A stretch of 33,288 bases of DNA from Gemmatimonadota bacterium. GTDB lineage: Bacteria; Gemmatimonadota; Gemmatimonadetes; Gemmatimonadales; GWC2-71-9. The position numbers and the translations under genes are program-made. Below are positions 3,329 through 27,847 of this stretch, one piece after another (the first letter of the stretch is position 1; every line of letters begins with the position of its first letter). The stretch spans positions 1 through 33,288 of the forward strand of contig QHVD01000193.1 of assembly GCA_003222235.1 (NCBI GenBank). Reading direction: 5' to 3'. The notes under the pieces were generated by a model. That model did not search any database and had not been told where the DNA came from. It worked only from the letters and a program-made list of their open reading frames with translations.

Positions 3329-4249
3329 CTAGCCCACCGCCTCAGTGGGCTTGGCGACGCGCCTCGAGAGAAAGTCGTCGGCCAGGCGCTCGGCAATGTC
3401 GATCCGCGTCACGCTCTGGAGACCTTTCCAGGCCGGCACGCCGTTGACTTCCAGCACCAGCAGTCGACCGTCACGATCGCGTACTAGGTCCACGCCGGCG
3501 TGATCGGCGCCGACGGCGGCGCAGGCGCGGACAGCGAGCCGTGCGAGGTCGGGCTCGAGCGCCGCCGCCTCGCAGCGCCCCCCCTGCGCCACGTTGTTGA
3601 CCCAGGTGGCCCCGCGCCGGACCATGGCCGCGACCGCCACCCCCGCGATGACGAAGACCCGCCAGTCGTGCCAGTCCCCGTCATGCGCGCCGGTTTCGAT
3701 GTACTGCTGGAGGTACCAGACGCCGTTACACTCAGCGGCGTCCGGGATGTCGGTCCCCGGCTCCAGGCAGCGGAGGCCGACACCCTGCGAGCCGAACAAC
3801 GGCTTGACGACGACGGCGTGCCCTGCCGCGGTCTGGCGCAGCAAGAAAGCGCGGGCTCGCGCCGGCGACTCGGTCACGCAGGTGGGCGGTGTGGGTACCC
3901 CTGCGTGACCGAACAGGAAGCTCGTCATCCCCTTGTCCACCGTCCGCTCGATGGCCCGGGCGTCGTTGTAGACCGGAACCCCCAGCTCCCGCAAGGCGTG
4001 CAGCACGTCGAGGCGCAGCACGACTTGCTCCAGCGTTCCAGCCGGAATGCCGCGCACGAAGACACCGTCCGGCACTCGTTTCTCGAACCCAGGGATGAAC
4101 AGCCCGCGGCAGCCGCGGGTCAGATCGATCCTGCAGGCCCGCAGGCTGACGAACTGGACCCTGGCATTACGCGCACCCAACGCCCGCCTCAAGCGCGACC
4201 CGTGCCAGCCCGGGGCGTCGTCAGTGACGATGGCTACATGAAGTGTCAC
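3329..4249 (-). CDS. RimK-type ATP-grasp alpha-L-glutamate ligase (MptN-like, H4MPT or MFR glutamylation)
   Basis: 306-aa ORF with VVVKPLFGSQGVGL and LLVLEVNGVPAWKGL motifs typical of the RimK family. Confidence 0.7.
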   Translation of the reverse strand: MTLHVAIVTDDAPGWHGSRLRRALGARNARVQFVSLRACRIDLTRGCRGLFIPGFEKRVPDGVFVRGIPAGTLEQVVLRLDVLHALRELGVPVYNDARAIERTVDKGMTSFLFGHAGVPTPPTCVTESPARARAFLLRQTAAGHAVVVKPLFGSQGVGLRCLEPGTDIPDAAECNGVWYLQQYIETGAHDGDWHDWRVFVIAGVAVAAMVRRGATWVNNVAQGGRCEAAALEPDLARLAVRACAAVGADHAGVDLVRDRDGRLLVLEVNGVPAWKGLQSVTRIDIAERLADDFLSRRVAKPTEAVG

Positions 4250-5339
4250 GCCGCCGCCTCGATCCCCGTCCGCTCAAGCAGGGCGCACCGCCGACGGACC
4301 AGGGCCACGGCCCGTGCGCGGTCCGACGCCGCAGCATGCACCGTGCATACCGGCTCCCCGGGAGCCACCCACGTTCCCGGGTGGGGGAGGTCGCGGCACC
4401 AGCGCGGAAAGCGGAACGCGGCAGTCACATGCCCGCCGGCGGGCGCGTACACGACCGCGTGCGCTCGCACGGCCCGCGGACGCGCTGTGCGATCGGGAAG
4501 CTCGCCCTCGCAAGCGCGCAGATGCCAGTCGAACAGACCCTGCGGGTAATCCGGATCGTAGAGCTCAACCGTGGCGGTCGGACGGGGGTTCACCTCGAGG
4601 GCGAGCCAGCGACGCCCGCGGAGTAGAAAGTCCAGGCCGTTCAATCCCACCAGCCCCGTGGCGGCCACGAGGGCGTCGAGCTTGGCCCGGAGCTCGGATT
4701 CCACCACCGCCGGCAGCGCTACCCCGCCGACGGCGCCGCCGTACAAGAACGGCAGATCGCGTCGCACGGACGCGGTCCACTGCTCATTGAAGCCGATGAC
4801 CGAGGCACGTCGGCCATCGGCGAGGAACAGCGCAGAGAGGCTGCGGCCATCCGGCGCACATGGGCGCCTCCCGCACCTCCGGGGTGCTTTACCAGCCAAC
4901 CGGCGGGGGCAAGGCGGGCGGGGCGGGCTTGGGGGGGAGGGGGGGCCGTGAAACGCGTCTCGGGATAGCGGATGCCCAAGCGATCGAGCAGGGGAAGGAA
5001 GCGTCGCACATCCTTCACGGCGGCAACTACCGAAGGCTCGTTGCCGTAGAGCCGCCGCCCGCGAGCGAGCCGCCCCAGCAAGCCGGTCCGGCCCTCGAAG
5101 CCGGAGCCGTAGACGAGGCCCGCACAGCGGCCCCAGGGCGCAAGCTCCGCCGCCGCTGCGAGCAGCGCGCGCGTGTCGAATCGCAGTCCCTGTCTCGCCA
5201 CCACAGAGCGGCACCGGCGCGCGAGCCCGCGGGTATCCCGATCCGCGAAACAGTCGAGCACGACCACGGGAATCCCGCTCCGCGCCGCCGACGCCGCGAG
5301 CGCGCGGCCCGTTACCGCAGCGATGAGAAAGGGCTCCAT
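4246..5339 (-). pseudogene. Third ATP-grasp ligase of the island, reading frame interrupted near 4845-4860
   Basis: The N-terminal part, in the frame of ORF 4719..5432, runs from ATG 5339 (MEPFLIAAVTGRALA...WLVKHPGGAGGAHVRR). The C-terminal part, in the frame of ORF 4246..5622, reads DGRSLSALFLADGRRASVIGFNEQW...LDFLLRGRRWLALEVNPRPTAT. The span is 1094 nt, i.e. 3n+2. Confidence 0.6.
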
Positions 5340-5482
5340 GGCGGTGCCGGTCAAACATACGCACCGAGATATCCTTGTCCATGATTCGACCGCGCGCATT
5401 GCCCGTACGTATTCTCGCCGACTTCTCATCACGCATTGCCATATGGGCGGATGGCCACATCTTAGCAGGGTAGAGGAGACTC

Positions 5483-5788
5483 ATGCCGACCATCGTAACG
5501 GGCAACTGCGAGAGATGCCGCTTCACCGACTGCGTGGCCGTGTGCCCCGTCGCGTGCTTCCACGGCGACGACCAGATGCTGTACATCGACAACAACGTCT
5601 GCATCGACTGCGGCGCCTGCATTCCGACCTGTCCGGTGCAGGCGATCTACGAGGAGGCCGACCTGCCGGGCGAGTTGCGGGTCTGGATCGCCATCAACGC
5701 GGAGCGCGCTCCCAATCTCCCGAGCATCACCGAGAAACAGGAGCCGCTGCCGGGGGCGGAGGCGCGCAAAGCCGACCTGGGGTTCTGA
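5483..5788 (+). CDS. fdxA: 7Fe ferredoxin ([3Fe-4S][4Fe-4S], Azotobacter FdI type)
   Basis: 101 aa. Contains [14 protein letters not shown] and [12 protein letters not shown] cysteine motifs. GAGGAG sits 5 nt upstream of the ATG. Confidence 0.85.
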
Positions 5789-5792
5789 TCGG

Positions 5793-7217
5793 ATGAGCGC
5801 CGGCTCGGAGCAGCATCCCCTCAGGGTCGCCATCGTGGGCTCCGGGCCGAGCGGGTTCTACGCCGCGGAAGGCCTGCTCAAATCGGGACGGATGGTTCGC
5901 CTCGACATGTTCGAGCGACTGCCGGCCCCCTTCGGCCTGGTGCGCCACGGGGTGGCCCCCGACCATCCCAAGCTCAAAGAGCCGATCCGCATCTACGACC
6001 GGATCGCCCGCGTCCCCGAGTTCAGGCTCCTCGGCAACGTCACAGTGGGCCGCGACGTGAGCGTCGAGGAGCTGAGAGCGGCTTACCACGCCGTGCTGTT
6101 CTGCTGCGGGGCCGAGAGCGATCGCCGGCTGGGCATCCCCGGCGAGGACCTGCCGGGAAGCCACACGGCGACCGAGTTCGTCGGCTGGTACAACGCGCAC
6201 CCCGACTACCGGGACCGCGAGTTCGATCTCAGCCAGGAAGTGGCTGTCATCATCGGCCAGGGGAACGTCGCCATAGACGTGTGCCGGATCCTGGCGAAGA
6301 CGGTAGACGAGCTCAAGCATACCGACATCGCCGCGCACGCCCTCGAGTGTCTCGCCGCGAGCCGGATCCGGGAGATCCACCTGATCGGACGCCGGGGGCC
6401 CGCGCAGGCCAAGTTCACGACTAAAGAGTTCCGGGAGCTCGGCGAGCTGGCAGACTGCGACCCCGTGGTCGATCCGGCGGACCTGGAGCTCAATACCGAG
6501 AGCCTGGCCGAGCTCGAGGACCGGGCCGGCTCGGTCGCCAAGAAGAACCTGGAGGTGCTCAAAGGGTTCGCCAGCCGGCCCGCCCGCCCAACCCGCCGGC
6601 GGGTGTTCCTGCGGTTCCTACTGAGCCCGGTGGAACTCCTTGACGACGGCGGGGGCGGGGGCGGCGGGGGGCGCCTGGAGCAGGTGGTGTTGGAACGGAA
6701 CCGGCTCGAGGGTGGTCCGTTCCGGCAGACCGCGCGCGCGACGGGGGAACGGCTGACGCTGGCGTGTGGGCTGCTGTTTCGCAGCATCGGGTACAAGGGC
6801 GTCGCCATTCCGGGAGTGCCGTTCGATCCGCGCCAGGGCGTCTTCCCTTCGCGGGACGGCCGCATCGTGGACGAGGCTGGCGCCGTGATCCCGGGGCTGT
6901 ACGCCGCGGGGTGGATCAAGCGCGGCCCCACCGGGATCATCGGCACCAACCGGGCGGACAGCATGGCAACCGTGAATTCGCTGCTCGCCGACCTTCCCAC
7001 CCTGGACACCGGCCCAAAGCTCGGGGCGGAGGGGCTGGCAGGCCTCCGGCCCGGGCAGGGACCGCGGGTGGTGAGCTACGCCGACTGGCTCGTCATCGAC
7101 GGGGCGGAGGTGCAGCGCGGAGCGTCCAAGGGCAAGCCGCGGGAGAAGTTCACTCGCGTCGCGGAGATGCTGCGGCTGCTGGACCGCCCCTTTCGTGAGA
7201 AGCCGACAGAGCCATAA
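5793..7217 (+). CDS. fprA: FprA / adrenodoxin-reductase-type NADPH:ferredoxin oxidoreductase
   Basis: 474 aa. Has [14 protein letters not shown] (FAD site), [31 protein letters not shown] (NADP site) and [14 protein letters not shown]. Close in pattern to mycobacterial FprA. The start is 4 nt after the fdxA stop. Confidence 0.85.
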
Positions 7218-7234
7218 CTAGCTATACTTCGCCA

Positions 7235-7594
7235 ATGGCGGAGATTATGACGTTGATCGGAGGGCGCTCCAGCAAGCAGGGCACGACGCTGTGCGCCAGC
7301 AAGCTGGGGGCGGCGTACGCCGAGATCTCCTCGACCCTGGAGATGAACGTCGAGGACATGGCGCGCCTGGGACTCAGCAACAACAGCAAGGTGAGATTGC
7401 GCACGCCGGCGGGCGAGGCCATCCTGCGATGCAAGGGTCGGGAGACGAAGGATCTGCCGCCCGGAATTCTGTTCATGACGTACGGACCGCTGTCGAGCCA
7501 ACTGATGGCGGGTGACACAGCCGGCAGCGGCATGCCGATTTCCAAGAATCTGGACGTCGAGGTCGAGCCAGTCCGGGACGAGAACGGGCCTTGA
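7235..7594 (+). CDS. fwdD: Formylmethanofuran dehydrogenase subunit D (small molybdopterin-dinucleotide-binding beta-barrel)
   Basis: 119 aa. Contains LIGGRSSKQG..EMNVEDMARLGL..KVRLRT..GILFMTYGP..AGSGMP, the FwdD/FmdD pattern. Sits immediately upstream of fwdB. Confidence 0.75.
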   Translation: MAEIMTLIGGRSSKQGTTLCASKLGAAYAEISSTLEMNVEDMARLGLSNNSKVRLRTPAGEAILRCKGRETKDLPPGILFMTYGPLSSQLMAGDTAGSGMPISKNLDVEVEPVRDENGP

Positions 7595-7607
7595 GGAGGG
7601 TCGGGTG

Positions 7608-8954
7608 ATGGGCGAGAACCTGAAGGTCGTCCGGGACGCCACCTGCACGTTCTGCGGGTGCGTGTGCGACGACATGCACCTCACGGTGGACCTCGATCAG
7701 AAGCGCATCATGAAGGCCGAGAACGCCTGCATCCTTGGCAAGGCGTGGTTCAGGGAGCATGGTATCGAGGAGCGTCCGCTCGCGCTCATCGGCGGCCGCA
7801 CGGCGACCACCGAAGAAGCGGTCGAGGCGGCTGCGCAGATCCTGGCCCAGGCGCGCTTCCCTCTGATCTACGGGCTGTCCGACACGACGTGCGAGGCTCA
7901 GCGGGTGGCGGTCGCGATCGCCGACATGATCGGGGGGACGGTGGACACGACGACCTCCGTCTGCCATGGCCCGTCGGGGATCGCTTTCGAGGGCGTGGGC
8001 GAGAGCACCGCCTCCCTGGGCGAGATCAAGAACCGGGCCGACCTCGTCGTGTTCTGGGGCGGCAACCCGGCGGAGGCGCACCCCAGGCTCTTCTCGCGCT
8101 ACGCGGTGACCCCCAAGGGCATGTTCATCCCCAACGGGCGGAAAGACCGCACCGTCGTGCTCGTGGACGTGCGGCGTACTCCCAGCACTCCTGCGGCCGA
8201 CATCTTCATCCAGGTGAAGCCGCGCAGCGATTTCGAGGTGCTGTGGGCGTTGCGCGCTCTGGTCAAGGGACGCAAGGTCGATCCCTCGATCGAGCGGCGG
8301 ACGGGCGTGTCCCTCGCGGTCCTGGAGGATCTGGTCGCCCGCATGAAGAGCTGCCGTTTCGGGGTTTTCCTGTTCGGGATGGGGCTCACGATGAACCGGG
8401 GCCGGCACTTCAATTCGGGCGCGTTGCTGGCGCTCGCCACCGATCTCAACGAGTTCACCCACTGGGTGGCGAAGCCGGTCCGCGGCCACGGCAACGTGAC
8501 CGGCGCGGACAACGTCGTGTCCTGGCAGACCGGATTCCCGTTCGGCGTCAACTTCAGCCGCGGCTATCCCCGCTTCAATCCTGGTGAGTTCACCTCGGTG
8601 GACCTGCTCACCCGGCGCGAGGCCGATGCGGCCTTGATCATCGCGAGCGACCCTGCCGACAATTTCCCCAAGGCGGCGATCGAGCATCTGCGGCGCATTC
8701 CCGTGATCACACTGGATCCCAAGGCCACGCCGACGACGCAATTGGCGCAGGTGGCGTTCACGACCGCCACCTACGGGATCAACGTGTCGGGAACCGTCTA
8801 CCGCATGGACGACGTGCCGATCACGCTGCGTCCCGCCTTCGAGTCCCCGTACCCGAGCGACGAGCAGGTGCTGACCGCCATTCGCGACCGGGTGCGCGCG
8901 CTGCTGGGAGGAAACCGGCTGCCGGCGGGCGCCCCGGTCGCCGCCGCCTCGTAG
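7608..8954 (+). CDS. fwdB: Formylmethanofuran dehydrogenase subunit B, archaeal-type (FeS and Mo/W-pterin motifs retained)
   Basis: ATG 7608 is preceded by GAGGAGGG. Motifs present: CTFCGCVCDD..NAC, TSVCHGPS, GEIKNRADLVVFWGGNPAEAHPR, PVRGHGNVTG, RFNPGE, EADAALIIASDP and GTVYRMDDVPI. ORF-track entry 7512..8954. Confidence 0.85.
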   Translation: MGENLKVVRDATCTFCGCVCDDMHLTVDLDQKRIMKAENACILGKAWFREHGIEERPLALIGGRTATTEEAVEAAAQILAQARFPLIYGLSDTTCEAQRVAVAIADMIGGTVDTTTSVCHGPSGIAFEGVGESTASLGEIKNRADLVVFWGGNPAEAHPRLFSRYAVTPKGMFIPNGRKDRTVVLVDVRRTPSTPAADIFIQVKPRSDFEVLWALRALVKGRKVDPSIERRTGVSLAVLEDLVARMKSCRFGVFLFGMGLTMNRGRHFNSGALLALATDLNEFTHWVAKPVRGHGNVTGADNVVSWQTGFPFGVNFSRGYPRFNPGEFTSVDLLTRREADAALIIASDPADNFPKAAIEHLRRIPVITLDPKATPTTQLAQVAFTTATYGINVSGTVYRMDDVPITLRPAFESPYPSDEQVLTAIRDRVRALLGGNRLPAGAPVAAAS

Positions 8955-8979
8955 AGCCTGGCGTCCCCGGAGGAATACC

Positions 8980-10671
8980 GTGGGATCGCCGCTGCGCATC
9001 GTCAACGGTCGGGTATACGACCCCGCCAACGGCGTCAACGGCGCGGTGCAGGATGTGTGCGTCCGCGACGGGAAGATCGTGGCCGACGTGCCACCCGACG
9101 CGAAGCGCATCGACGCGGCCGGCATGGTGGTGATGCCGGGCGGCATCGACATCCACTGCCACATCGCCGGCCCGAAGGTCAACCTCGCCCGCAAGGTGCA
9201 GCCCGAGACCCACCAGGACGACGTGCAGCTCCGCACCCGGCTCACCCGATCGGGCACCGGCGGCACGGTTCCCTCCACGTTCGCGACGGGCTATCGCTAT
9301 GCGACGCTCGGCTACACGACCGCCATGGAAGCGGCCGTGACGCCTCTCGGAGCGCGGCACACGCTGGAGGAATTCCACGACACGCCCGTCCTCGACAAGG
9401 GCTTTTTCGTGCTGGTGGGCAACAACCTGCTGCTCTACCGGCTGCTCCAGGAGGGACGGCGCGAGGAGCTCCGGCACGCGCTCGCCTGGTGGCTGAAGGT
9501 GACCAAGGCGTATGCCCCGAAGCTCGTGAATCCCGGGGGGGACGAGATGTGGAAGGGCCAGCGCAACGCCAACATCACCAGCCTCGACGACAAGATCGGG
9601 TCCTTCGACCTCACCCCGCGCCGGGTGATCGCCGCGTTCATCGAGGCCGGGAACGAGCTGGGGCTCCCGCACCCCGTGCACATCCACTGCAACAACCTCG
9701 GCCACTCGGGGAACGTCGAAACGACGCTCGAGACGATGCGGCTCGCCGAAGGGCGGCGGGCGCACATCGCGCACATTCAGTTCCACAGCTACGGCGCCGC
9801 CGCCGGCAAGAGCCAGAGCAACCCGACGTCGCGCGCGCGGGACATCATCGAGTACATCAACACGCACCCCAACATCAGCGCCGATGTCGGCGCGGTGATG
9901 TTCGGGCCCGCCACCATCATGACCGGGGACGCCCCGCTCGCCTACATGCTGCGCCGCTTCGGAGGCAACAAGTGGGTGAACGCCGACACGGAAAACGAGA
10001 GCGGGTGCGGCATCGTCCCCTTCAGATACCAGGATCGGGTATACACGAACGCCCTGCAGTGGGCCATCGGGCTCGAACTGCTGCTGCTCTCCGAAGACCC
10101 CTGGCGCATGGTGTTCTCCACCGATCACCCGAACGGCGGGTCGTTCATGAGCTACCCGCGGCTCATTCGCCTGCTGATGGACCGCGGGTACCGCAAGGAG
10201 CAGATGGCCCACGTGAACCAGAAGGCGCTCGACCGGAGCGCCCTGCGCGACTGCCAGGAGCGGGAGTACTCGCTGTCGGAGATCGCGATCATCACGCGCG
10301 CCGGGCCGGCCCGACTGCTCGGGCTCACCGACAAAGGGCACCTCGGGGTCGGGGCGGACGCCGACGTGACGATCTACGAGGAGGATGAGGACAAGGAGAA
10401 GATGTTCTCGGCGCCGCGGTACGTGATCAAGGACGGCGAGCTCATCATCGAAGACCACGAGCTGCGCGCGGACCACCAGGGGCGCCTCCTGCACGTCGCG
10501 CCGGATTACGATCCCCAAATCGAGCAGGTGATCGAGCCGTTCTTCGAGGACTTCTACACCATCCGGTTTGCGAACTATCCGGTGGACGACCGCTACGTGC
10601 CCAATGGCCAGATCATCCCCACGACGCCATCGGTGGCGGCCGCCCCCGCGACCGCCGGCACACGGACGTGA
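8980..10671 (+). CDS. fwdA: Formylmethanofuran dehydrogenase subunit A (amidohydrolase; FwdA/FhcA)
   Basis: 563 aa with a GTG start after GGAGGA. Has the PGGIDIHCHIAGP metal-binding HxH motif, with FwdA/FhcA-like sequence throughout. Confidence 0.9.
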   Translation: MGSPLRIVNGRVYDPANGVNGAVQDVCVRDGKIVADVPPDAKRIDAAGMVVMPGGIDIHCHIAGPKVNLARKVQPETHQDDVQLRTRLTRSGTGGTVPSTFATGYRYATLGYTTAMEAAVTPLGARHTLEEFHDTPVLDKGFFVLVGNNLLLYRLLQEGRREELRHALAWWLKVTKAYAPKLVNPGGDEMWKGQRNANITSLDDKIGSFDLTPRRVIAAFIEAGNELGLPHPVHIHCNNLGHSGNVETTLETMRLAEGRRAHIAHIQFHSYGAAAGKSQSNPTSRARDIIEYINTHPNISADVGAVMFGPATIMTGDAPLAYMLRRFGGNKWVNADTENESGCGIVPFRYQDRVYTNALQWAIGLELLLLSEDPWRMVFSTDHPNGGSFMSYPRLIRLLMDRGYRKEQMAHVNQKALDRSALRDCQEREYSLSEIAIITRAGPARLLGLTDKGHLGVGADADVTIYEEDEDKEKMFSAPRYVIKDGELIIEDHELRADHQGRLLHVAPDYDPQIEQVIEPFFEDFYTIRFANYPVDDRYVPNGQIIPTTPSVAAAPATAGTRT

Positions 10672-11498
10672 CCCTCACCTTGACCCTGCGTACCGCACCC
10701 ACGGTACCGCTCGAGGCAGATGTCTTGAGTCCGGACCGTCTGTCCGGCGTGTCGGCGCTCGAGGCCGCGAAGCTCACCGTCGTCCACGGCAACCAGCGCG
10801 CCGACCTGGGCGAGTTCTTCCAGGTCGGGGGCGCCGCCGACGGTGAGCTCCACCTCACGGGCGACCTGGCCCAGGTGAAACAGATCGGCACGGGCATGGC
10901 ACGGGGCCGGATCGTGGTGCACGGATCCGTGGGCATGCACCTCGGCGCGGGCATGACCGGCGGGGAGATCGTCGTGGAGGGCGACGCCGGCGACTGGGTG
11001 GGCCCGGAAATGTCGGGAGGACGGATCGTCGTCAAGGGGAACGCCGGTCACATGCTCGGCAGCGCCCGCCGCGGCAGCCAGATCGGCGTGCGCGGCGGGG
11101 AGATCGTCGTATTCGGGAACGCGGGCAACGAGGTCGGCAACGGCATGCGCCGCGGGCTGATCGCGATCGGCGGCGACGCCGGCGACTTTGCGGGGGTGAA
11201 CATGCTCGCGGGGACCATCGTGGTGCTCGGACGCCTTGCGTGGAGGGCCGGCGCGGGGATGAGGCGCGGCTCGATCATCTCCATGCATCCCGCAGAACTG
11301 CTGCCCACGTTCAGCTACGCCTGCGACTACGCCCCCGAGTTCCTGCGTGTCTGCCTGCGCCACGTACGCGGGCTGGGCCTGACCATCGCCGACTCGCACG
11401 TGAACGGCCGGTACCAGCGCTGGTGCGGCGACGGAATCGAGCTGAACCGGGGCGAGGTGCTGATCCTCGATTCCGCGGGGACCGCGTCGCGGAGCTGA
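10668..11498 (+). CDS. fwdC: Formylmethanofuran dehydrogenase subunit C (FwdC/FhcC, GXGXG-repeat beta-helix)
   Basis: 276 aa. Shows repeated G.MxgGxIvVxGnaG units. The start overlaps the fwdA stop (GTGA). Confidence 0.9.
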   Translation: MTLTLTLRTAPTVPLEADVLSPDRLSGVSALEAAKLTVVHGNQRADLGEFFQVGGAADGELHLTGDLAQVKQIGTGMARGRIVVHGSVGMHLGAGMTGGEIVVEGDAGDWVGPEMSGGRIVVKGNAGHMLGSARRGSQIGVRGGEIVVFGNAGNEVGNGMRRGLIAIGGDAGDFAGVNMLAGTIVVLGRLAWRAGAGMRRGSIISMHPAELLPTFSYACDYAPEFLRVCLRHVRGLGLTIADSHVNGRYQRWCGDGIELNRGEVLILDSAGTASRS

Positions 11499-11556
11499 CG
11501 CGACGCCGCCAGCGCCCCGGAGAATTGGCTCTCGTCCGAGGACGGAGGGGTTGACG

Positions 11557-12465
11557 ATGCTTGTGCGCGGCGTGCTCATCGAAGACACGTTCGCCGAGGC
11601 GTTCACCATGCGCGTGGCGCGGCTCGTCATCACGGGCGGCACGCCGCGCTGGGCGCGAGAGGCGGGGCTCAAGCTGACCGGCTTCGCGACTTCGGTGATC
11701 GGGTGCAAATGCGAGGCGGGGATCGAGCGCGAGCTCTCCGAGACCGAAACGCCCGACGGGCGGCCGGGGGTGAGCGTGCTGTTCCTGACGATGGACAAGG
11801 AGAGCCTCCCACAACAGCTGATCTCGCGGATCGGCCAGACGGTGCTGACCTGCCCCACGACGGCGTGCTTCGACGGGCTCCCGGACGGACCCGACCGGCT
11901 GCCGGTGGGCAAGGCGCTGCGGGTGTTCGGCGACGGGTTCCAGGGGAGCAAGGTGATCGGCGGCAAGCGGTACTGGCGGGTGCCGGTGATGGAGGGGGAG
12001 TTCCTGGTGGAGGAGACGTTCGGCATGCAGAAGGGGGTGGGCGGCGGGAACTTCCTGATCCTCGCCCGGGATGCCGATGCTGCGCTCGCGGCGGCCGAGG
12101 CCGCGGTCGACGCGATGGCCAACCACCCGGGCGTGGTCCTCCCGTTTCCCGGCGGCGTGGTGCGGAGCGGTAGCAAGGTGGGCTCGAAGCGCTACAAGAA
12201 AATGGTCGCGACGACGAACGACGCCTTCTGCCCCACGCTCCGGGCGCTCACCGAATCCCAGCTTCCCGAGGGCGTGAACAGCGTGCTCGAGATCGTGCTC
12301 GATGGGACCGACGCCCCCGCGATCGCAGCGGCGATGCGGTTGGGAATCGACGCCGCCTGCCGGCCGGGCGTGCAGGCGATCACGGCCGGCAACTACGGCG
12401 GCAAGCTCGGGCCGCATCACTTTCACCTGCGCCGCATCATGGGAGGCGAGTCGCAGGCCGCGTGA
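11557..12465 (+). CDS. ftr: Formylmethanofuran:tetrahydromethanopterin N-formyltransferase (Ftr/FhcD)
   Basis: ATG 11557 lies 6 nt after GGAGGGG; the ORF track opens at TTG 11551. Contains IEDTFAEAF..RLVITG..TGFATSVIGC..E, a typical Ftr N-terminus. Confidence 0.9.
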   Translation: MLVRGVLIEDTFAEAFTMRVARLVITGGTPRWAREAGLKLTGFATSVIGCKCEAGIERELSETETPDGRPGVSVLFLTMDKESLPQQLISRIGQTVLTCPTTACFDGLPDGPDRLPVGKALRVFGDGFQGSKVIGGKRYWRVPVMEGEFLVEETFGMQKGVGGGNFLILARDADAALAAAEAAVDAMANHPGVVLPFPGGVVRSGSKVGSKRYKKMVATTNDAFCPTLRALTESQLPEGVNSVLEIVLDGTDAPAIAAAMRLGIDAACRPGVQAITAGNYGGKLGPHHFHLRRIMGGESQAA

Positions 12466-13448
12466 GTGACGTCCTCGGTGGGATGCGCCGCGTGCCGCTG
12501 GGCGTCAATGACCGCGCCTGGGAGATTGCGGACATCATGGTGGCGAACGCGGACGCGATGCGGGTCGCGTCACGCACCCTGGGGAACGGCGCGCGCGTGA
12601 TCGACGCCGGCATCAATGCGCCCGGGGGCTACGCGGCTGGCGCGGCCATCGCCGAGATGTGCATGGGAGGGCTCGGGGACGTGGACTACGCCCCGGTGCC
12701 GATCGGCGGGGAGACCTGGCCTGGCGTGCGGGTATGGACCGATCACCCGGCCGTGAGCTGTATGGCGTCGCAGTACGCCGGCTGGACGATCCAGGTGGGA
12801 AAATACTTCGCCATGGGCTCGGGACCGCTGCGCGCCCATGCCCGGGTGGAGAAGGAGCTGTTCGAGAAGTTGGGCTATGCCGAGACGGCCCGGCGCGGGG
12901 TGCTGGTGCTCGAGACCCGCAACCCGGCGACCGAGGAGGTGGCGGCCTGGGTGGCGCAGAAGGCGGGACTCGCTCCCGACCGGCTCACGTTCGTCGTGGC
13001 GCCGACGGCGAGCCTCGCCGGCGGAGTACAGATCGCCGCGCGGATTCTCGAGACGGGGCTCCACAAGATGGACGCGCTGGGCTTCGACCTGAAGAAGGTC
13101 GTGAGCGGCATCGGGACCGCTCCGCTCCCCCCGGTCGCGAAGAACGACTTGCGGGGCATCGGCCGCACCAACGACTGCATCCTCTACGGGGGACAGGCCC
13201 GCTACACGGTGCACGCCGACGACGCCGAGCTCGCCGAGCTCGTGCCGAAGATCCCGGCCGCGGCCTCAAAGGACTATGGCACCCCGTTCTACGAAATCTT
13301 CAAACGCTACGGCGGCGACTTTTACAAGATCGACCCGCTGCTCTTCAGCCCCGCCGAGGTGTGGCTGACGAGCGTGGAGAGCGGCAAGACGTACCACGCG
13401 GGGTATCTGAACCCCGAGGTGCTGCACGCGTCGCTGCTCGAGACCTGA
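12462..13448 (+). CDS. mch: Methenyl-tetrahydromethanopterin cyclohydrolase
   Basis: 328 aa. Contains SCMASQYAGW and YFAMGSGP signatures. GTGA overlap with ftr. Confidence 0.9.
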   Translation: MSDVLGGMRRVPLGVNDRAWEIADIMVANADAMRVASRTLGNGARVIDAGINAPGGYAAGAAIAEMCMGGLGDVDYAPVPIGGETWPGVRVWTDHPAVSCMASQYAGWTIQVGKYFAMGSGPLRAHARVEKELFEKLGYAETARRGVLVLETRNPATEEVAAWVAQKAGLAPDRLTFVVAPTASLAGGVQIAARILETGLHKMDALGFDLKKVVSGIGTAPLPPVAKNDLRGIGRTNDCILYGGQARYTVHADDAELAELVPKIPAAASKDYGTPFYEIFKRYGGDFYKIDPLLFSPAEVWLTSVESGKTYHAGYLNPEVLHASLLET

Positions 13449-13462
13449 GGCCCCCCCGCGCC

Positions 13463-14467
13463 ATGGCCAACCAGTCCACGGACCCTGCAGGAAGCAACCT
13501 CGATCGACGTCGCGGCGTCGATCGTCGAGCACCTCATCCGGCGGTTGGCGCCGACGTGAGTGCGCCGGCGGCGGAGCCCGCCCGGTCGGGGCTCGCTCCG
13601 GCGGCCGACGTGGCCGCGGCCGCCCAGCTGGCCTGCCTGCTCGAAGCGACCGCCCCCAAGCCCGGCAACGTCTCGCCTACGGCCTCGTTTCACGACGCGA
13701 CCTACGGGGACTTCCTGGCGAGCGCCGTGGCGATCGGTCCGGCGCTCGCCGCCGCCGGCGAGCGGCCGCTCGGTGCCACGATCTACGCCGCCGTCGAGGC
13801 CACCACCCGGTGGACGCGCTCCAACACGAACCTGGGCCTCGTGTTGCTACTCGCGCCCCTGGCCCGGGCCGCCCTCAGGCCCGGGTCCGCACCGCTCAGA
13901 GCCAAGCTTGCCGCCACGCTCGCCGAGACCACCGTAGCGGATGCGCGCGATGCCTACGCCGCGATCCGGCTTGCCGCGCCGGGAGGGCTGGGACGCGCTC
14001 CCGAGCAGGATGTCGCCCATACCCCCACGGTGCCCCTGGGCGCGACGATGGCGCTCGCCGCGGAGCGCGACGCGATCGCGCGCGAGTACGTCACCGAATT
14101 CCGGGCCACGTTCGAGGTCGGGGTCGCCGCGCTCCGCCACGCGCTCGGCAGCGGCCTGGGCTGGCCGGAGGCGACGGTTGAGGCGTACCTCGCGCTGCTC
14201 GCCGCGGCACCCGACACGCACATCGCCCGCAAGCTCGGCGCCGCCGAAGCCGCCGCCGTGCAGCGCCGGGCGCAAGAGGTGCTCGCGGCCGGAGGGGTCC
14301 GCACCCCGGCAGGGCGCGACGCGATCACGGCGCTCGACCGCGAGCTGCGCCACGAGCGTAACCGGCGGAATCCCGGCGCGACGGCGGATCTCACGGGAGC
14401 GGCGATCTGCGTCGTGTTACTGGAAGGCGGCTGGCGGCGCGGTGGAGGGACTGATGGCAGCGCGTAA
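13463..14467 (+). CDS. Triphosphoribosyl-dephospho-CoA synthase (CitG)-like protein of H4MPT islands (orf7-like)
   Basis: Contains LEATAPKPGNVSP, TNLGLVLLLAPLA and NPGATADL motifs of the CitG/MdcB family. The start is uncertain: ATG 13463, or GTG 13556 which gives a more typical length of about 303 aa. Confidence 0.75.
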   Translation: MANQSTDPAGSNLDRRRGVDRRAPHPAVGADVSAPAAEPARSGLAPAADVAAAAQLACLLEATAPKPGNVSPTASFHDATYGDFLASAVAIGPALAAAGERPLGATIYAAVEATTRWTRSNTNLGLVLLLAPLARAALRPGSAPLRAKLAATLAETTVADARDAYAAIRLAAPGGLGRAPEQDVAHTPTVPLGATMALAAERDAIAREYVTEFRATFEVGVAALRHALGSGLGWPEATVEAYLALLAAAPDTHIARKLGAAEAAAVQRRAQEVLAAGGVRTPAGRDAITALDRELRHERNRRNPGATADLTGAAICVVLLEGGWRRGGGTDGSA

Positions 14468-14957
14468 GCAGTTCAAGATCGCCGTCGCGAAAGACAACCT
14501 CGTGTTCGCGTCGGCCCACTTCATCACGTTCTCCGGGCACCGCTGCGAGACGCTGCACGGCCACAACTACCGCACGCGCGTCGTCGTGGAGGGCGGCCTC
14601 GATCCCGAGGCCCACTTCGTGCTCGACTTCTCCGAGGTAAAACAGATCACGAAGCGCCTGACGGATGAGGTCGACCACAAGGTGCTCCTCCCGCTCCAGA
14701 ACCCAAAGATCGAGATTCGGGAGGAAGGCGACACGGTGACGGTCGCCGTGGGCGGGAAGCCGCGCTACGTGTTCCCGAAGGGTGATTGCGCGCTTCTGCC
14801 CATCCCGAACACGACGGTGGAGATGCTGGCGGAGTATCTCGCGGGACGGGTCGCGAGGGCGCTCGCGTCGTCGGAGGGGGTCGACTTGCGGGCGATCGAA
14901 GTCGAGGTCGAGGAGAACTTCGGCCAATCCGCGACCTACCGCGAGTCGCTGGAGTGA
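14454..14957 (+). CDS. 6-pyruvoyl-tetrahydropterin synthase (PTPS/QueD)-related protein
   Basis: 167 aa. Has FASAHFITFSGHRCETLHGHNY, the Cys plus His zinc/catalytic pattern of the PTPS family. ATG 14454 overlaps the end of the preceding gene. Confidence 0.8.
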   Translation: MAARKQFKIAVAKDNLVFASAHFITFSGHRCETLHGHNYRTRVVVEGGLDPEAHFVLDFSEVKQITKRLTDEVDHKVLLPLQNPKIEIREEGDTVTVAVGGKPRYVFPKGDCALLPIPNTTVEMLAEYLAGRVARALASSEGVDLRAIEVEVEENFGQSATYRESLE

Positions 14958-23663: not shown

Positions 23664-23825
23664 CACTATCCCTGGCAGCAATCCCACTCGGACGGAGGGA
23701 GACCGGCGATGGCTCTGGCCTGTTGGGAACGTGGCCCCCCGTAATGACGCGCGAGGGTCTCGAAGCTGACGGGCAAATGACGCGAACCACTCTTCACCAC
23801 GCTCATCCTCAACATGAGGTCAGCT

Positions 23826-25607
23826 ATGAATCGCTTCAAACTGCTGTCCGGCGGACTCGCTGCGAGTCTCTTGGTGCTCGTAGCAGCGTCTGCCGTCGCT
23901 CAGTCGCTGGAGAGTCCTCCGGCTGGGCAGTGGTGGTCCACGGGTCGAACGTACGACCTGCAGCGGTATAGTTCCCTCAGCCAGATCAACCGGACGACTG
24001 TGAAGAACCTCAAGGCCTCGTGGACGTTTTCGACCGGCGTCTTGAACGGTCACGAGGGAAACCCGCTGGTCATCAACAACGTGATGTACGTGCACAGCGC
24101 CTTCCCGAACATCGTGTACGCGCTCGATCTGACCAAGCCGGGCGCGCCGATGATCTGGAAGCACGTGCCGAGCCAGCCCGCCGAGGCGAAGCCGATCGCG
24201 TGCTGCGATCTCGTGAACCGCGGCGTCGCTTACCATTCGAGCGGCAAGCTGTTCATCGAGCTCTTGGCGGGCGACCTGCTGGCGCTCGATGCGAAGACCG
24301 GCAAGCAGATCTGGCGGGTTCCGCACGCCGACTACAAGACCGGCTCGACGATGACCAACGCCCCACTCGTGGTGAAGGACATCGTGATCGCGGGGATCTC
24401 GGGCGGCGAGTTCGGAGTCCGCGGCCGCGTCAGCGGGTTCGACGTCAACACCGGCCAGAAGAAGTGGACGATGTACAGCACCGGGCCCGACGCTGAAGTC
24501 GGGATCGAAGGCAACGCCAACGAGAACTACGCGTCGCATCGCGGGAAGGACCTCGGCGTCAGCACGTGGCAGGGCGACGAGTGGCAGCGCGGCGGCGGGA
24601 CCACGTGGGGTTGGTATTCGTATGACCCCGAGCTGAACCTGTTCTACTACGGCAGCGGCAACCCGGGGAGCTGGAACCCGGATCAGCGTCCCGGCGACAA
24701 CAAGTGGTCGATGACGATATGGGCCCGCAACCCCGAAACCGGAAAGGTCAAGTGGGCCTACCAGATGACGCCGCACGACGAGTGGGACTACGACGGCGTC
24801 AACGAGATGGTCCTCGCCGACCTGACGATCGGTGGCAGGCCGGTGAAGGCGCTCGTGCACTTCGACCGCAACGGCTTCGGCTACACGCTCGACCGGACCA
24901 ACGGCAAGGTGCTGGTCGCCGAGCCCTTCGGGCCGGTGAACTGGGCCTCGAAGATCGACCTCACGACCGGCGTCCCGGTACGCAACGCGACGTACGGGAC
25001 GACCTCGAAGAAGAACACCGAGGGTATCTGCCCGGCCGCCATCGGCTTCAAGGACCAGCAACCCTCGGCGTTCTCCCCGCAGACGAAGCTCTTCTACGTG
25101 CCGACGAACAACATCTGCATGGATTACGAGGGCGTAGAGGTGAAGTACTCGGCCGGCCAACCCTACGTCGGCGCGATCGTGCGCATGTATCCGGGCCCCG
25201 GCGGCAACCGCGGCCGGTTCATCGCGTGGGATCCGACGGTCGGCAGGGTCAAGTGGGAGATCAAGGAGAACCTCGCGGCGTACGGCGGCGCCCTGGCGAC
25301 GGCCGGCGGCGTGGTGTTCTACGGGACGATGGAAGGCTGGCTCAAGGCGGTTGATGCCACCACCGGCACCGAGCTGTGGAAGTTCAAGTGCCCGTCGGGC
25401 ATCATCGGCAACCCGATGACCTACCTGGGGCCCGACGGCAAGCAGTACGTCGCCGTGCTCTCCGGGGTAGGCGGCTGGGCGGGGGCCGGCATTGCGCTCG
25501 GCATCACTCCGGACGATCCCACGGCCGCCCTTGGGGCCATCGGCGCGTTCGGGGACTACACCAACATCAGCAACGCGGGCGGCACGCTGCTCGTGTTTGG
25601 CCTGTAG
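23826..25607 (+). CDS. xoxF: PQQ-dependent methanol dehydrogenase, lanthanide-type (XoxF)
   Basis: Signal peptide MNRFKLLSGGLAASLLVLVAASAVAQ. Has the vicinal-cysteine IACCDLVNRG motif. PHDEWDYDGVNEM carries the extra Asp (DYD) diagnostic of XoxF, where MxaF has Ala. ATG 23826 has GAGG 6 nt upstream; the ORF track opens at ATG 23814. Confidence 0.9.
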   Translation: MNRFKLLSGGLAASLLVLVAASAVAQSLESPPAGQWWSTGRTYDLQRYSSLSQINRTTVKNLKASWTFSTGVLNGHEGNPLVINNVMYVHSAFPNIVYALDLTKPGAPMIWKHVPSQPAEAKPIACCDLVNRGVAYHSSGKLFIELLAGDLLALDAKTGKQIWRVPHADYKTGSTMTNAPLVVKDIVIAGISGGEFGVRGRVSGFDVNTGQKKWTMYSTGPDAEVGIEGNANENYASHRGKDLGVSTWQGDEWQRGGGTTWGWYSYDPELNLFYYGSGNPGSWNPDQRPGDNKWSMTIWARNPETGKVKWAYQMTPHDEWDYDGVNEMVLADLTIGGRPVKALVHFDRNGFGYTLDRTNGKVLVAEPFGPVNWASKIDLTTGVPVRNATYGTTSKKNTEGICPAAIGFKDQQPSAFSPQTKLFYVPTNNICMDYEGVEVKYSAGQPYVGAIVRMYPGPGGNRGRFIAWDPTVGRVKWEIKENLAAYGGALATAGGVVFYGTMEGWLKAVDATTGTELWKFKCPSGIIGNPMTYLGPDGKQYVAVLSGVGGWAGAGIALGITPDDPTAALGAIGAFGDYTNISNAGGTLLVFGL

Positions 25608-25652
25608 GCTAGAGCTGGTGTAGGCCACCGCACCATTCCACTGGCAGATGGG

Positions 25653-27834: not shown

Positions 27835-27847
27835 ACAGGAAGCGGCG

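What the first reader, a model, noticed from the sequence alone, without database searches (positions are those of the whole stretch)
5483..7217. 7Fe ferredoxin plus FprA-type NADPH:ferredoxin reductase as the first two cistrons of the fwd-ftr-mch operon
Seen: fdxA (5483-5788) and fprA (5793-7217) are 4 nt apart. fprA ends 17 nt before fwdD. All following genes up to 14957 are on the same strand, with gaps of 58 nt or less, or with overlaps. None of the polyferredoxin subunits (FwdF/G/H) that wire the archaeal enzyme is present in the window.

Established knowledge: archaeal Fwd receives or delivers electrons through ferredoxin-like subunits. FprA-type enzymes exchange electrons between NADP(H) and 7Fe ferredoxins.

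Inference: the pair could be the dedicated electron conduit of the Fwd-like enzyme (formyl-MFR to Fd to NADP+). I am not aware that such a three-component arrangement has been described.
Basis: inference. Interest (0 to 1): 0.7.

Follow-up and report, generated by a model that had tools for sequence, protein, structure and literature searches.

The report
NADPH-linked formylmethanofuran dehydrogenase operon in bacteria
A soil bacterium (Gemmatimonadales) carries a true, redox-active formylmethanofuran dehydrogenase in one operon with a 7Fe ferredoxin and an FprA-type NADPH:ferredoxin reductase, and this pairing recurs in dozens of uncultured methylotroph genomes, suggesting a previously unrecognised enzyme system that burns the last C1 intermediate straight to CO2 while making NADPH.

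Summary
fdxA (5483-5788) and fprA (5793-7217) head a ten-gene same-strand block: fdxA-fprA-fwdDBAC-ftr-mch-citG-like-PTPS-like.

The B subunit is not the inert FhcB scaffold of classical methylotrophs. It matches archaeal redox-active FwdB (PDB 8rja_B, 2e-118) far better than FhcB (7e-14). It keeps the four N-terminal Fe-S cysteines and the SVCHG active site. No FwdF/G polyferredoxin is in the window.

I anchored on FwdB in species-representative genomes. FprA lies directly beside fwdDBA(ftr)C in 50 of 58 informative loci, and FdxA+FprA in 40. The pair sits upstream in Gemmatimonadales and Betaproteobacteria and downstream in Gamma- and Alphaproteobacteria.

Best reading (inference, about 0.6): formyl-methanofuran -> FwdB W/Mo-pterin -> [4Fe-4S] -> 7Fe Fd -> FprA FAD -> NADP+. 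This would be a bacterial analogue of the F420-coupled Fwd of Ca. Ethanoperedens.

Caveats:
- Ten loci have FprA without FdxA.
- Eight lack both.
- Two keep FprA in an Fhc-only cluster.
- No biochemistry exists, and every relative found is from a MAG or metagenome.

No paper I found describes the arrangement. An earlier study labelled this Gemmatimonadetes cluster "fhc".

The parts
5340..5482 (.). 143-nt divergent intergenic region between a minus-strand ATP-grasp gene (H4MPT/methanofuran cofactor biosynthesis block) and fdxA. It is the presumed promoter region of the operon.
   Evidence: Sequence read. A GAGGAG Shine-Dalgarno sequence lies 6 nt before the fdxA ATG. The only sigma-70-like match points to the minus strand.
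5483..5788 (+). fdxA: 101-aa Azotobacter-type 7Fe ([3Fe-4S][4Fe-4S]) ferredoxin.
   Evidence: Cysteine pattern C9xxC12xxxxC17xxxC21P ... C40xxC43xxC46xxxC50P. PDB 1frk/1axq A. vinelandii FdI, E 2e-27. Pfam Fer4 plus DUF3470. NCBIfam FdxA_Protbact scores 110 bits, below its cut-off of 135.
5793..7217 (+). fprA: 474-aa FprA/adrenodoxin-reductase-type NADPH:ferredoxin oxidoreductase.
   Evidence: PDB 1lqt (M. tuberculosis FprA) 2.9e-118 and 1cjc (adrenodoxin reductase) 3.2e-109, both full length. The motifs [28 protein letters not shown] and GWIKRGPTG are conserved here and in relatives.
7235..7594 (+). fwdD: 119-aa molybdopterin-dinucleotide-binding cap subunit.
   Evidence: Pfam Molydop_binding 1e-11. 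PDB 8rja_D 3.8e-12 and 5t5i_D 6.5e-9. NCBIfam FwdD scores 58 bits, below its cut-off of 175.
7608..8954 (+). fwdB: 448-aa W/Mo-bis-pterin catalytic subunit. It retains the N-terminal [4Fe-4S] cysteines and the SVCHG / RGHGNVTG active-site motifs.
   Evidence: TIGR03129 scores 500 bits against a cut-off of 328. PDB 8rja_B 2.4e-118 and 5t5i_B 3.8e-111, against FhcB 6s6y_B at only 6.7e-14. Motifs are shown in the alignment.
8980..10671 (+). fwdA: amidohydrolase subunit, the site where formyl-methanofuran and formate interconvert.
   Evidence: TIGR03121 scores 694 bits against a cut-off of 393. Pfam Amidohydro_3 1e-45.
10668..11498 (+). fwdC: GXGXG-repeat subunit.
   Evidence: TIGR03122 scores 261 bits against a cut-off of 131. 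Pfam GXGXG.
11551..12465 (+). ftr (fhcD-like): formylmethanofuran:H4MPT formyltransferase.
   Evidence: Pfam FTR and FTR_C at 1e-57 and 2e-62. NF002554 scores 441 bits.
12462..13448 (+). mch: methenyl-H4MPT cyclohydrolase.
   Evidence: Pfam MCH 1.6e-123. TIGR03120 scores 413 bits.
13463..14467 (+). citG-like triphosphoribosyl-transferase homologue. The start is uncertain: ATG 13463 or GTG 13556.
   Evidence: tblastn with the CitG-family gene of L002 gives 75% identity over 271 aa at 13652-14464. Possible starts were read.
14454..14957 (+). PTPS/QueD-like gene, the last gene of the same-strand block.
   Evidence: Pfam PTPS 5e-24. tblastn with L002 PTPS gives 82% identity at 14454-14951.

Best explanation
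The block 5483-14957 is one operon. It encodes a bacterial, redox-active formylmethanofuran dehydrogenase (FwdDBAC, probably with Ftr as a formyltransferase partner, as in Fhc) together with its own electron-acceptor module.

Proposed path:
1. Ftr transfers the formyl group from formyl-H4MPT to methanofuran/methylofuran.
2. FwdA hydrolyses it to formate inside the complex.
3. The W/Mo-pterin of FwdB/FwdD oxidises the formate to CO2.
4. The two electrons leave through the FwdB [4Fe-4S] cluster to the 7Fe ferredoxin FdxA. FdxA stands in for the archaeal FwdG/FwdF polyferredoxins.
5. FprA (FAD) collects the electrons and reduces NADP+.

Net reaction: formyl-MFR + NADP+ + H2O -> CO2 + MFR + NADPH.

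With E0' of about -530 mV for CO2/formyl-MFR and -320 mV for NADP+, the reaction runs only in the oxidative direction. It gives a strong thermodynamic pull and yields NADPH without free formate.

What is shown: gene identities, retention of catalytic and Fe-S residues, absence of FwdF/G, tight spacing, and conserved linkage across phyla. What is inferred: co-transcription, physical electron transfer, direction, and NADP+ as final acceptor. Where FdxA is missing, FprA may dock directly or use an unlinked ferredoxin.
For: 1. FwdB is of the catalytic type. PDB 8rja_B scores 2.4e-118 and 5t5i_B 3.8e-111, against FhcB at 6.7e-14. The CTFCGCVCDD...C and SVCHGPS motifs are kept.

2. The motif separates the two classes. 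83 of 85 Fwd-type B subunits have [ST][VIA]CHG. None of 32 co-resident FhcB-like paralogues has it.

3. The only ferredoxin motifs in 33 kb are in FdxA. The enzyme therefore has no built-in polyferredoxin.

4. FprA is full length, with NADP(H)-site GRRGP and FAD motifs. FdxA is the 7Fe type. From established knowledge (memory), this is the class that M. tuberculosis FprA reduces.

5. Spacing is 4 nt and 17 nt. No terminator-like or promoter-like site lies between the genes.

6. Linkage from the FwdB side. FprA is adjacent in 50 of 58 informative species-level loci: 22 upstream and 28 downstream of the fwd genes. FdxA+FprA is present in 40. The loci come from Gemmatimonadota and Alpha-, Beta- and Gammaproteobacteria.

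7. Linkage from the FprA side. All six neighbourhoods of FprA homologues (70-84% identity) that I looked up lie in fwd/fhc clusters.

8. Gaps and co-inheritance. Estimated median gaps are 30-45 nt. FprA identity tracks FwdB identity (Spearman 0.94), consistent with inheritance as one module.

9. In L007 the Fwd+Fd+FprA set sits next to a separate Fhc set that is followed by an NAD-type formate dehydrogenase. That is two parallel routes, each with its own electron outlet.

10. Precedent. Ca. Ethanoperedens Fwd carries an added reductase subunit that redirects electrons to F420 as a thermodynamic pull (PMC11493965, PMC11656701).
Against: - There is no biochemical, transcript or protein evidence for this locus.
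- Ten Gemmatimonadales loci have FprA but no adjacent FdxA, so the ferredoxin step is not obligatory in cis.
- Eight informative loci lack both genes within 10 kb: five Gemmatimonadales, one further Gemmatimonadota locus and two Chloroflexota. No alternative carrier was seen in L048 or L076.
- In L003 and L004 fprA sits in fhcB-fhcA-ftr-fprA-fhcC-mch, with only a Cys-less B subunit within 10 kb. FprA may therefore have a role that does not need catalytic FwdB.
- FdxA and FwdD score below NCBIfam equivalog cut-offs.
- The FwdB-FprA identity correlation is also what shared species phylogeny would produce.
- The promoter/terminator scan is weak for a Gemmatimonadota genome.
Confidence: 0.6

Rival explanations
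1. FprA (with or without FdxA) serves the C1/H4MPT-methanofuran module in a non-catalytic or different way. Options include reductive activation or oxygen-damage repair of the W/Mo or Fe-S centres, or supplying low-potential electrons to a cofactor-biosynthesis step. It would not be the stoichiometric electron sink of formyl-MFR oxidation.
For: L003 and L004 retain an intact fprA (71-73% identity) inside an Fhc-type cluster whose B subunit lacks the catalytic Cys. The operon is embedded among H4MPT/methanofuran biosynthesis genes: ATP-grasp ligases, MfnB, citG-like, PTPS-like. Eight Fwd-type loci manage without a linked FprA.
Against: The adjacency follows fwdDBAC itself and not the biosynthesis genes. 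In Gamma- and Alphaproteobacteria the pair follows fwdC directly and is followed by the Fhc set. A catalytic FwdB without FwdF/G needs some acceptor, and none other is encoded nearby. The architecture of L003/L004 is what a deletion of fwdD..fwdC from the L017/L025/L026 arrangement would leave.
Confidence: 0.17
2. The system runs in reverse. NADPH -> FprA -> Fd -> Fwd reduces CO2 to formyl-methanofuran for C1 assimilation.
For: Archaeal Fwd works in this direction in methanogens (PMC11656701). FprA-type enzymes normally pass electrons from NADPH to ferredoxin (established knowledge).
Against: E0' of CO2/formyl-MFR is about -530 mV. The cited review says even H2 (-414 mV) cannot drive it. NADPH at -320 mV would be about 40 kJ/mol uphill, and no bifurcating module is present. 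The context is an oxidative methylotrophy island with XoxF-type methanol dehydrogenase.
Confidence: 0.04
3. fdxA-fprA is a housekeeping redox pair that merely happens to lie next to the fwd genes, through vertical inheritance of a chance neighbourhood or hitch-hiking.
For: 7Fe ferredoxins and FprA-type reductases are common general-purpose proteins. All relatives are MAGs, and many are related Gemmatimonadales.
Against: Adjacency survives rearrangement. The pair is upstream in 22 loci, downstream in 28 loci, and sits between an fhc and an fwd set in several. It also survives transfer between phyla. All six FprA-anchored look-ups landed in fwd/fhc clusters.
Confidence: 0.04
4. The B subunit is catalytically dead despite its motifs. 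The complex would be an Fhc-type hydrolase releasing formate, and the pair would be unrelated to it.
For: Butterfield et al. 2016 labelled this Gemmatimonadetes cluster 'fhc' (PMC5103831). Aerobic methylotrophs characterised so far use Fhc (PMC6926001, listed; PMC10100899).
Against: All four Fe-S cysteines, the Cys-His pair and the RGH motif are conserved, together with a separate FwdD cap subunit that Fhc lacks. In many loci a genuine Cys-less FhcB-like paralogue coexists, so the two types are kept distinct.
Confidence: 0.08

Closest known systems
Archaeal tungsten/molybdenum formylmethanofuran dehydrogenase FwdABCDFG (M. wolfeii, PDB 5T5I)
   Same: Orthologous A, B, C and D subunits. FwdB matches at 3.8e-111, with the same Fe-S cysteines and Cys-His active site. 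FwdD matches at 6.5e-9.
   Different: No FwdF or FwdG polyferredoxin. The host is a bacterium in an aerobic-methylotroph context. ftr and mch are in the same operon. The electron partner is a soluble-type 7Fe ferredoxin plus a flavoprotein reductase.
Fwd of Ca. Ethanoperedens thermophilum with an added F420-reductase subunit (PDB 8RJA; Lemaire et al. 2024, PMC11493965)
   Same: Best structural-database match for FwdB (2.4e-118) and FwdD (3.8e-12). Same logic: an oxidative Fwd whose electrons are steered by an extra reductase to a higher-potential nucleotide-type cofactor as a thermodynamic pull.
   Different: The acceptor there is F420, reached through a bound subunit wired by FwdF/G-type clusters. 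Here the predicted acceptor is NADP+, reached through an unrelated adrenodoxin-reductase-family flavoprotein and a 7Fe ferredoxin. That host is an anaerobic archaeon.
Formyltransferase/hydrolase complex FhcABCD of Methylorubrum extorquens (PDB 6S6Y; Hemmann et al. 2019, PMC6926001)
   Same: Homologous A, B, C subunits plus Ftr (FhcD). Same pathway position in bacterial H4MPT-linked formaldehyde oxidation.
   Different: FhcB lacks the pterin and acts as a scaffold, and the product is free formate (PMC10100899). It matches the window's B subunit only at 6.7e-14. Fhc has no D subunit and needs no electron acceptor.
M. tuberculosis FprA / mitochondrial adrenodoxin reductase with their ferredoxins
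   Same: Same fold and motifs over the full length (2.9e-118 and 3.2e-109). A 7Fe ferredoxin as partner of FprA is established knowledge (from memory).
   Different: Those systems pass electrons from NADPH to ferredoxin to feed P450s and similar enzymes. Here the predicted physiological flow is the reverse (Fd -> NADP+), and the pair is dedicated to a W/Mo enzyme.
NAD+-dependent Mo/W formate dehydrogenases (FdsABG type)
   Same: A Mo/W-bis-pterin CO2/formate site coupled to a pyridine nucleotide. In L007 such an enzyme follows the Fhc set next to the Fwd-Fd-FprA set.
   Different: The diaphorase there is a NuoE/F-type FMN/Fe-S module fused or bound to the catalytic subunit. The substrate is free formate, not formyl-methanofuran.

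Membership tests
Formylmethanofuran dehydrogenase (Fwd/Fmd), catalytic type | B subunit with a Cys/Sec-His pair that ligates W/Mo-bis-pterin, plus a conserved Arg | tested here: met
   SVCHGPS and RGHGNVTG align with the archaeal FwdB structures 8rja_B and 5t5i_B. TIGR03129 scores 500 bits against a cut-off of 328.
Formylmethanofuran dehydrogenase (Fwd/Fmd), catalytic type | N-terminal four-cysteine [4Fe-4S] motif in FwdB | tested here: met
   CTFCGCVCDD ... NAC aligns with the cysteines of archaeal FwdB.
Formylmethanofuran dehydrogenase (Fwd/Fmd), catalytic type | Separate FwdD subunit (molybdopterin-dinucleotide-binding cap), FwdA amidohydrolase and FwdC | tested here: met
   FwdD: Pfam PF01568 1e-11 and PDB 8rja_D 3.8e-12, though its NCBIfam score of 58 bits is below the cut-off of 175. 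FwdA scores 694 bits and FwdC 261 bits, both above their cut-offs.
Formylmethanofuran dehydrogenase (Fwd/Fmd), catalytic type | Polyferredoxin electron-transfer subunits FwdF/FwdG, as in the archaeal holoenzyme | tested here: not met
   No other ferredoxin-type cysteine motif in any frame of the 33-kb window. FdxA is an Azotobacter-type 7Fe ferredoxin, not an FwdG orthologue.
Formylmethanofuran dehydrogenase (Fwd/Fmd), catalytic type | W or Mo content and formyl-MFR dehydrogenase activity | not testable with these tools
   Needs purified protein.
Formyltransferase/hydrolase complex (Fhc) | B subunit without a pterin ligand (scaffold only), and no D subunit | tested here: not met
   The window's B subunit has the Cys-His pair, and a D subunit is present. 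FhcB 6s6y_B matches only at 6.7e-14. Cys-less FhcB-like paralogues exist as separate genes in related loci.
FprA / adrenodoxin-reductase family NADPH:ferredoxin reductase | Two-domain FAD/NADP fold with GxGxxG (FAD), GxGxxA plus an Arg-Arg 2'-phosphate site (GRRGP), and the GVAPDHxK and GWIKRGPTG motifs | tested here: met
   Full-length alignment to 1lqt and 1cjc. The motifs are conserved in ten relatives. Residue roles are from established knowledge (memory).
FprA / adrenodoxin-reductase family NADPH:ferredoxin reductase | NADP(H)-dependent electron exchange with a ferredoxin | not testable with these tools
   Needs an enzyme assay.
Azotobacter-type 7Fe ferredoxin (FdxA) | CxxCxxxxCxxxCP ... 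CxxCxxCxxxCP pattern and the C-terminal DUF3470 extension | tested here: met
   Pattern read. Pfam DUF3470 1.2e-6. A. vinelandii FdI structures at E 2e-27 over residues 4-93.
Azotobacter-type 7Fe ferredoxin (FdxA) | NCBIfam equivalog score (FdxA_Protbact, cut-off 135 bits) | tested here: not met
   110 bits. It is a divergent member by NCBI's threshold.

The most novel reading that the evidence does not exclude
A previously unrecognised, widespread bacterial enzyme system, an NADP+-reducing formylmethanofuran dehydrogenase (FwdDBAC-Ftr + 7Fe ferredoxin + FprA), is the terminal C1-oxidising step in abundant uncultured soil and marine methylotrophs and methanotroph-like lineages (Gemmatimonadales, relatives of USC-gamma, Burkholderiales, Ca. 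Oxydemutatoraceae). It would bypass free formate, yield NADPH directly, and provide a thermodynamic pull suited to trace-level C1 substrates. Genes now annotated 'fhc' in these organisms would be mis-assigned.
Probability: 0.5. Interest if true: 0.8.

Novelty: new variant of a known kind. Interest (0 to 1): 0.72.

Why it matters
The accepted view holds that aerobic methylotrophic bacteria end the H4MPT pathway with the non-redox Fhc hydrolase, and that separate formate dehydrogenases then oxidise free formate. Redox-active Fwd is regarded as essentially archaeal and ferredoxin- (or F420-) linked.

If the present reading holds, many uncultured but environmentally abundant bacteria oxidise formyl-methanofuran directly to CO2 and capture the very low-potential electrons as NADPH. 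They would do so through a module (7Fe Fd + FprA) never before associated with a W/Mo-pterin enzyme.

That would have four consequences:
- It changes the reductant and energy budgets used in models of soil methanol and methane sinks.
- It corrects widespread 'fhc' annotations.
- It adds a third acceptor type (NADP+) to the modular electron-transfer repertoire of Fwd enzymes.
- It offers an oxygen-exposed, NADP-coupled CO2/formyl-carrier catalyst of biotechnological interest.

The hypothesis can be tested directly by expressing a ten-gene operon.

Tried and rejected
1. My first fwdB coordinates (7609) were out of frame. The corrected start is ATG 7608.

2. I first took 13941-14957 as one gene. 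tblastn showed a citG-like gene (to 14467) and a PTPS-like gene from about 14454.

3. The 520-aa 'FprA-FwdD fusion' P0022 in L001 looked like a Rosetta-stone fusion. The junction is a read-through of the intergenic spacer, which includes FwdD's own SD and GTG start. The assembly has other fragmented genes. I do not use it as evidence.

4. I looked for an alternative electron carrier in FprA-less Chloroflexota loci (L048, L076). Only DUF11, VIT1, DUF2193, MtdB-like and cofactor-biosynthesis genes turned up.

5. I looked for a cultured host. tblastn of FwdB against PLSDB plasmids gave only a 27%-identity Fhc-like gene in Azospirillum. A second protein search with a gammaproteobacterial FwdB gave 120 best hits, all from MAGs or metagenomes.

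6. Eight literature searches found no description of FprA/FdxA linked to bacterial Fwd. The 'FprA' hits in methanogen papers refer to the unrelated F420H2 oxidase.

7. The promoter/terminator scan was uninformative beyond the absence of sites.
Full report
**1. Observation**

The window has 70% GC. Codon-position GC separates real genes from the many spurious ORFs.

On the + strand, fdxA (5483-5788, 101 aa) is followed after 4 nt by fprA (5793-7217, 474 aa). After a further 17 nt comes fwdD (7235-7594).

The block continues as follows:
- fwdB 7608-8954. ATG 7608 is preceded by GAGGAGG. My first guess at the coordinates was out of frame.
- fwdA 8980-10671.
- fwdC 10668-11498.
- ftr 11551-12465.
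- mch 12462-13448.
- a citG-like gene, about 13463-14467.
- a PTPS-like gene, about 14454-14957.

All gaps are 52 nt or less, or are overlaps. The one uncertainty is the citG-like start: with GTG 13556 instead of ATG 13463, its gap would be 107 nt. Upstream, a 143-nt spacer (5340-5482) separates fdxA from a divergent block of ATP-grasp/RimK-type cofactor-biosynthesis genes.

**2. What the two genes are**

FdxA has the cysteine spacing of Azotobacter-type 7Fe ferredoxins. It also has their C-terminal DUF3470 extension. It matches A. vinelandii ferredoxin I structures at 2e-27. It scores below NCBI's equivalog cut-off (110 against 135 bits), so it is a divergent member.

FprA aligns over its whole length with M. 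tuberculosis FprA (2.9e-118) and adrenodoxin reductase (3.2e-109). The FAD motif GSGPSG, the GVAPDHPK motif, the NADP-domain motif GQGNVAIDV, the GRRGP motif and GWIKRGPTG are all present. They are conserved in relatives.

**3. What the downstream enzyme is**

This is the point that gives the finding its weight. Classical methylotrophic bacteria have Fhc. Its B subunit has lost the pterin and serves as a scaffold, and the product is free formate (PMC6926001; PMC10100899). Such an enzyme needs no electron partner.

The window's B subunit is not of that kind:
- It matches the archaeal catalytic FwdB structures at 2.4e-118 (8rja_B, Ca. Ethanoperedens) and 3.8e-111 (5t5i_B, M. wolfeii). It matches M. 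extorquens FhcB only at 6.7e-14.
- It keeps the N-terminal Fe-S cysteines (CTFCGCVCDD...C), the SVCHGPS Cys-His pair and RGHGNVTG.
- A separate FwdD cap subunit is present.

Across related loci, 83 of 85 Fwd-type B subunits carry [ST][VIA]CHG. None of 32 co-resident FhcB-like paralogues does.

A six-frame search finds ferredoxin-type cysteine motifs only in FdxA. The archaeal FwdF/G wiring is therefore absent. A redox-active Fwd without its usual electron-transfer subunits needs another outlet.

**4. Context**

The window is a methylotrophy island:
- H4MPT/methanofuran biosynthesis genes: ATP-grasp ligases, MfnB (4-HFC-P synthase), a DUF6513/pterin-binding protein, and a chorismate-binding enzyme.
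- A XoxF-type PQQ dehydrogenase at 23814-25607 with accessory genes.

The closest relatives are Gemmatimonadales MAGs. L010 (isolate SMAG_U229) is 98% identical in FwdB.

Butterfield et al. 2016 described this kind of Gemmatimonadetes contig. They detected its pathways in soil proteomes. They labelled the genes 'fhc' and did not mention ferredoxin (PMC5103831).

**5.

*From the FprA side.* I looked up six homologues of 70-84% identity. All lie in fwd/fhc clusters, with different gene orders:
- fprA-fwdD-B-A-C-ftr-mch (L002).
- fwdD-B-A-ftr-C-fdxA-fprA, followed by a second Fhc set and an NAD-type formate dehydrogenase (L007-L009).
- fhcB-fhcA-ftr-fprA-fhcC-mch (L003, L004).

*From the FwdB side.* A scan of one genome per species returned at least 573 relatives. 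I kept the best 80 loci, at 72-98% identity. They come from:
- Gemmatimonadota.
- Alpha-, Beta- and Gammaproteobacteria, including USCg_Taylor, Ca. Methylophosphatis and Ca. Oxydemutatoraceae.
- Chloroflexota.

I ran tblastn with the window's eight proteins against these loci:

| Result | Loci |
|---|---|
| FprA immediately adjacent, upstream of fwdD (Gemmatimonadales, Betaproteobacteria) | 22 |
| FprA immediately adjacent, downstream of fwdC (Gamma-/Alphaproteobacteria) | 28 |
| Both FprA and FdxA absent within the flanks | 8 |
| Contig too short to decide | 22 |

So FprA is adjacent in 50 of 58 informative loci. FdxA accompanies it in 40 of these. Ten Gemmatimonadales loci have FprA alone.

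Estimated intergenic gaps have medians of 30-45 nt. FprA identity tracks FwdB identity (Spearman 0.94). Shared phylogeny would also produce that correlation.

Adjacency that survives inversion of order and transfer between phyla is strong evidence for a functional link. In several Gemmatimonadales the fprA-fwdDBA(ftr)C unit sits as an insert inside an fhc operon (L012, L017, L021, L025, L026).

**6. Mechanism**

Shown:
- The identities of the genes.
- Retention of the catalytic and Fe-S residues.
- Lack of FwdF/G.
- Tight spacing with no terminator-like or promoter-like site between the genes. The scan is a weak test.
- Conserved linkage.

Inferred: electrons from formyl-methanofuran oxidation at the FwdB/D W/Mo-pterin pass through the FwdB [4Fe-4S] cluster to FdxA, then to the FAD of FprA, then to NADP+.

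The CO2/formyl-MFR couple is about -530 mV (PMC11656701). NADP+/NADPH is -320 mV (established knowledge). The oxidative direction is therefore strongly exergonic and the reverse is not feasible without bifurcation.

The direct precedent is the Ca. Ethanoperedens Fwd. Its added reductase subunit sends electrons to F420 as a thermodynamic pull (PMC11493965). That enzyme also happens to be the best PDB match of the window's FwdB and FwdD.

Because ftr is embedded in or beside the fwd genes in almost all loci, the complex may resemble Fhc in containing Ftr. That is speculation.

**7. Complications**

- FdxA is dispensable in cis (ten loci). In those loci FprA may dock directly or use an unlinked ferredoxin.
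- Eight loci lack both genes. I saw no substitute carrier in two Chloroflexota loci.
- L003 and L004 keep an intact fprA with only a Cys-less B subunit within 10 kb. Their arrangement is what deletion of fwdD..fwdC from the L017-type layout would leave. It leaves open an Fwd-independent role, or an Fwd encoded elsewhere in those genomes.
- The L001 'FprA-FwdD fusion' is a read-through in a fragmented assembly. I discount it.

**8. Comparison with the known, and novelty**

Bacterial FwdB homologues acquired from archaea have been reported (149 in a GTDB survey; PMC10100899). fwdD homologues have been noted in NC10, Firmicutes and Synergistetes, but were said to be absent from Proteobacteria (PMC5020050).

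Reviews of Fwd electron-transfer modules list polyferredoxin/ferredoxin, Hdr supercomplexes and the F420 reductase. The only bacterial relative they mention is Fhc (PMC11656701).

Eight full-text searches found no paper connecting an FprA-type reductase or a 7Fe ferredoxin with Fwd. The library is incomplete, so this shows that I found no description, not that none exists.

I rate the finding a new variant of a known kind: a modular Fwd with a new, NADP-directed acceptor module in aerobic-type bacteria.

All 80 genome loci are from MAGs. No cultured carrier was seen.

**9. Verdict**

- Confidence in the NADP+-reducing Fwd-Fd-FprA model: about 0.6.
- Interest: 0.72.

Noticed in passing
window 4246-5339 (minus strand), break near 4848-4854: The ATP-grasp_3 gene next to the divergent promoter is split between two reading frames. 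Its 380-aa orthologue in L002 is intact. This is either an assembly frameshift or a pseudogene.
   Followed up: partly
L003, L004, L007, L012, L013, L015, L017-L019, L023-L028, L031, L043, L054, L060, L062, L063, L072, L073, L078, L079, L081, L082, L085, L087, L089 (second B-type gene in each): FhcB-like paralogues of two subtypes (24-32% and 36-38% identity to FwdB) lack the catalytic Cys-His. Most still keep the N-terminal CxxCxxxC...C Fe-S motif, and they are about 420-465 aa. M. extorquens FhcB is 361 aa. They may be Fe-S-containing intermediates between Fwd and Fhc.
   Followed up: partly
L007 4500-20811 (also L008, L009): One locus carries both routes side by side: fwdD-B-A-ftr-C-fdxA-fprA, then fhcB-A-D-C followed by an NAD-type formate dehydrogenase (a NuoF-like 560-aa protein plus an FdsA-like 920-aa protein).
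   Followed up: no
L003 5961-13248 and L004 6099-13286: fprA is embedded in an Fhc-only cluster (fhcB-fhcA-ftr-fprA-fhcC-mch), followed by an EthD-domain gene. No Cys-type FwdB lies within 10 kb. No explanation so far accounts for this.
   Followed up: partly
L001 4420-5982: A 520-aa gene call joins FprA and FwdD in frame, reading through the spacer and FwdD's own SD/GTG. Neighbouring genes in this contig are fragmented, so an assembly artefact is likely. A real fusion is not excluded.
   Followed up: yes
window 6645-6670 (FprA residues about 285-292): A run of eight glycines (GGC/GGG tract) is inserted in a surface loop of FprA. L010 has a different 7-residue insert at the same place. All other relatives I examined lack it.
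   Followed up: partly
window 23814-28813: A XoxF-type PQQ methanol/ethanol dehydrogenase is followed by an unassigned 302-aa ORF, a pentapeptide-repeat protein and a YncE-like beta-propeller. With the H4MPT genes this makes a compact methylotrophy island of the kind described for Gemmatimonadetes by Butterfield et al. 2016.
   Followed up: no
L048 11344-15524: In a Caldilineaceae MAG a 4-kb insert separates fwdB from fwdA. It carries a DUF11 protein, two unassigned ORFs and a VIT1-family iron/manganese transporter.
   Followed up: partly
L029-L089 (record titles): Cys-type fwdB with fwdD is present in many MAGs labelled Alpha-, Beta- and Gammaproteobacteria, including USCg_Taylor. This is contrary to the 2016 statement that fwdD homologues are absent from Proteobacteria. 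Some bin labels ('Enterobacteriaceae', 'Mycobacterium sp.') look like mis-assignments.
   Followed up: no
L076 1905-3449: A DUF2193 protein ('conserved in archaea', E 1.5e-198) lies upstream of the mtdB-like and fwd genes in an Ardenticatenia MAG. This hints at a larger block of archaeal origin.
   Followed up: no
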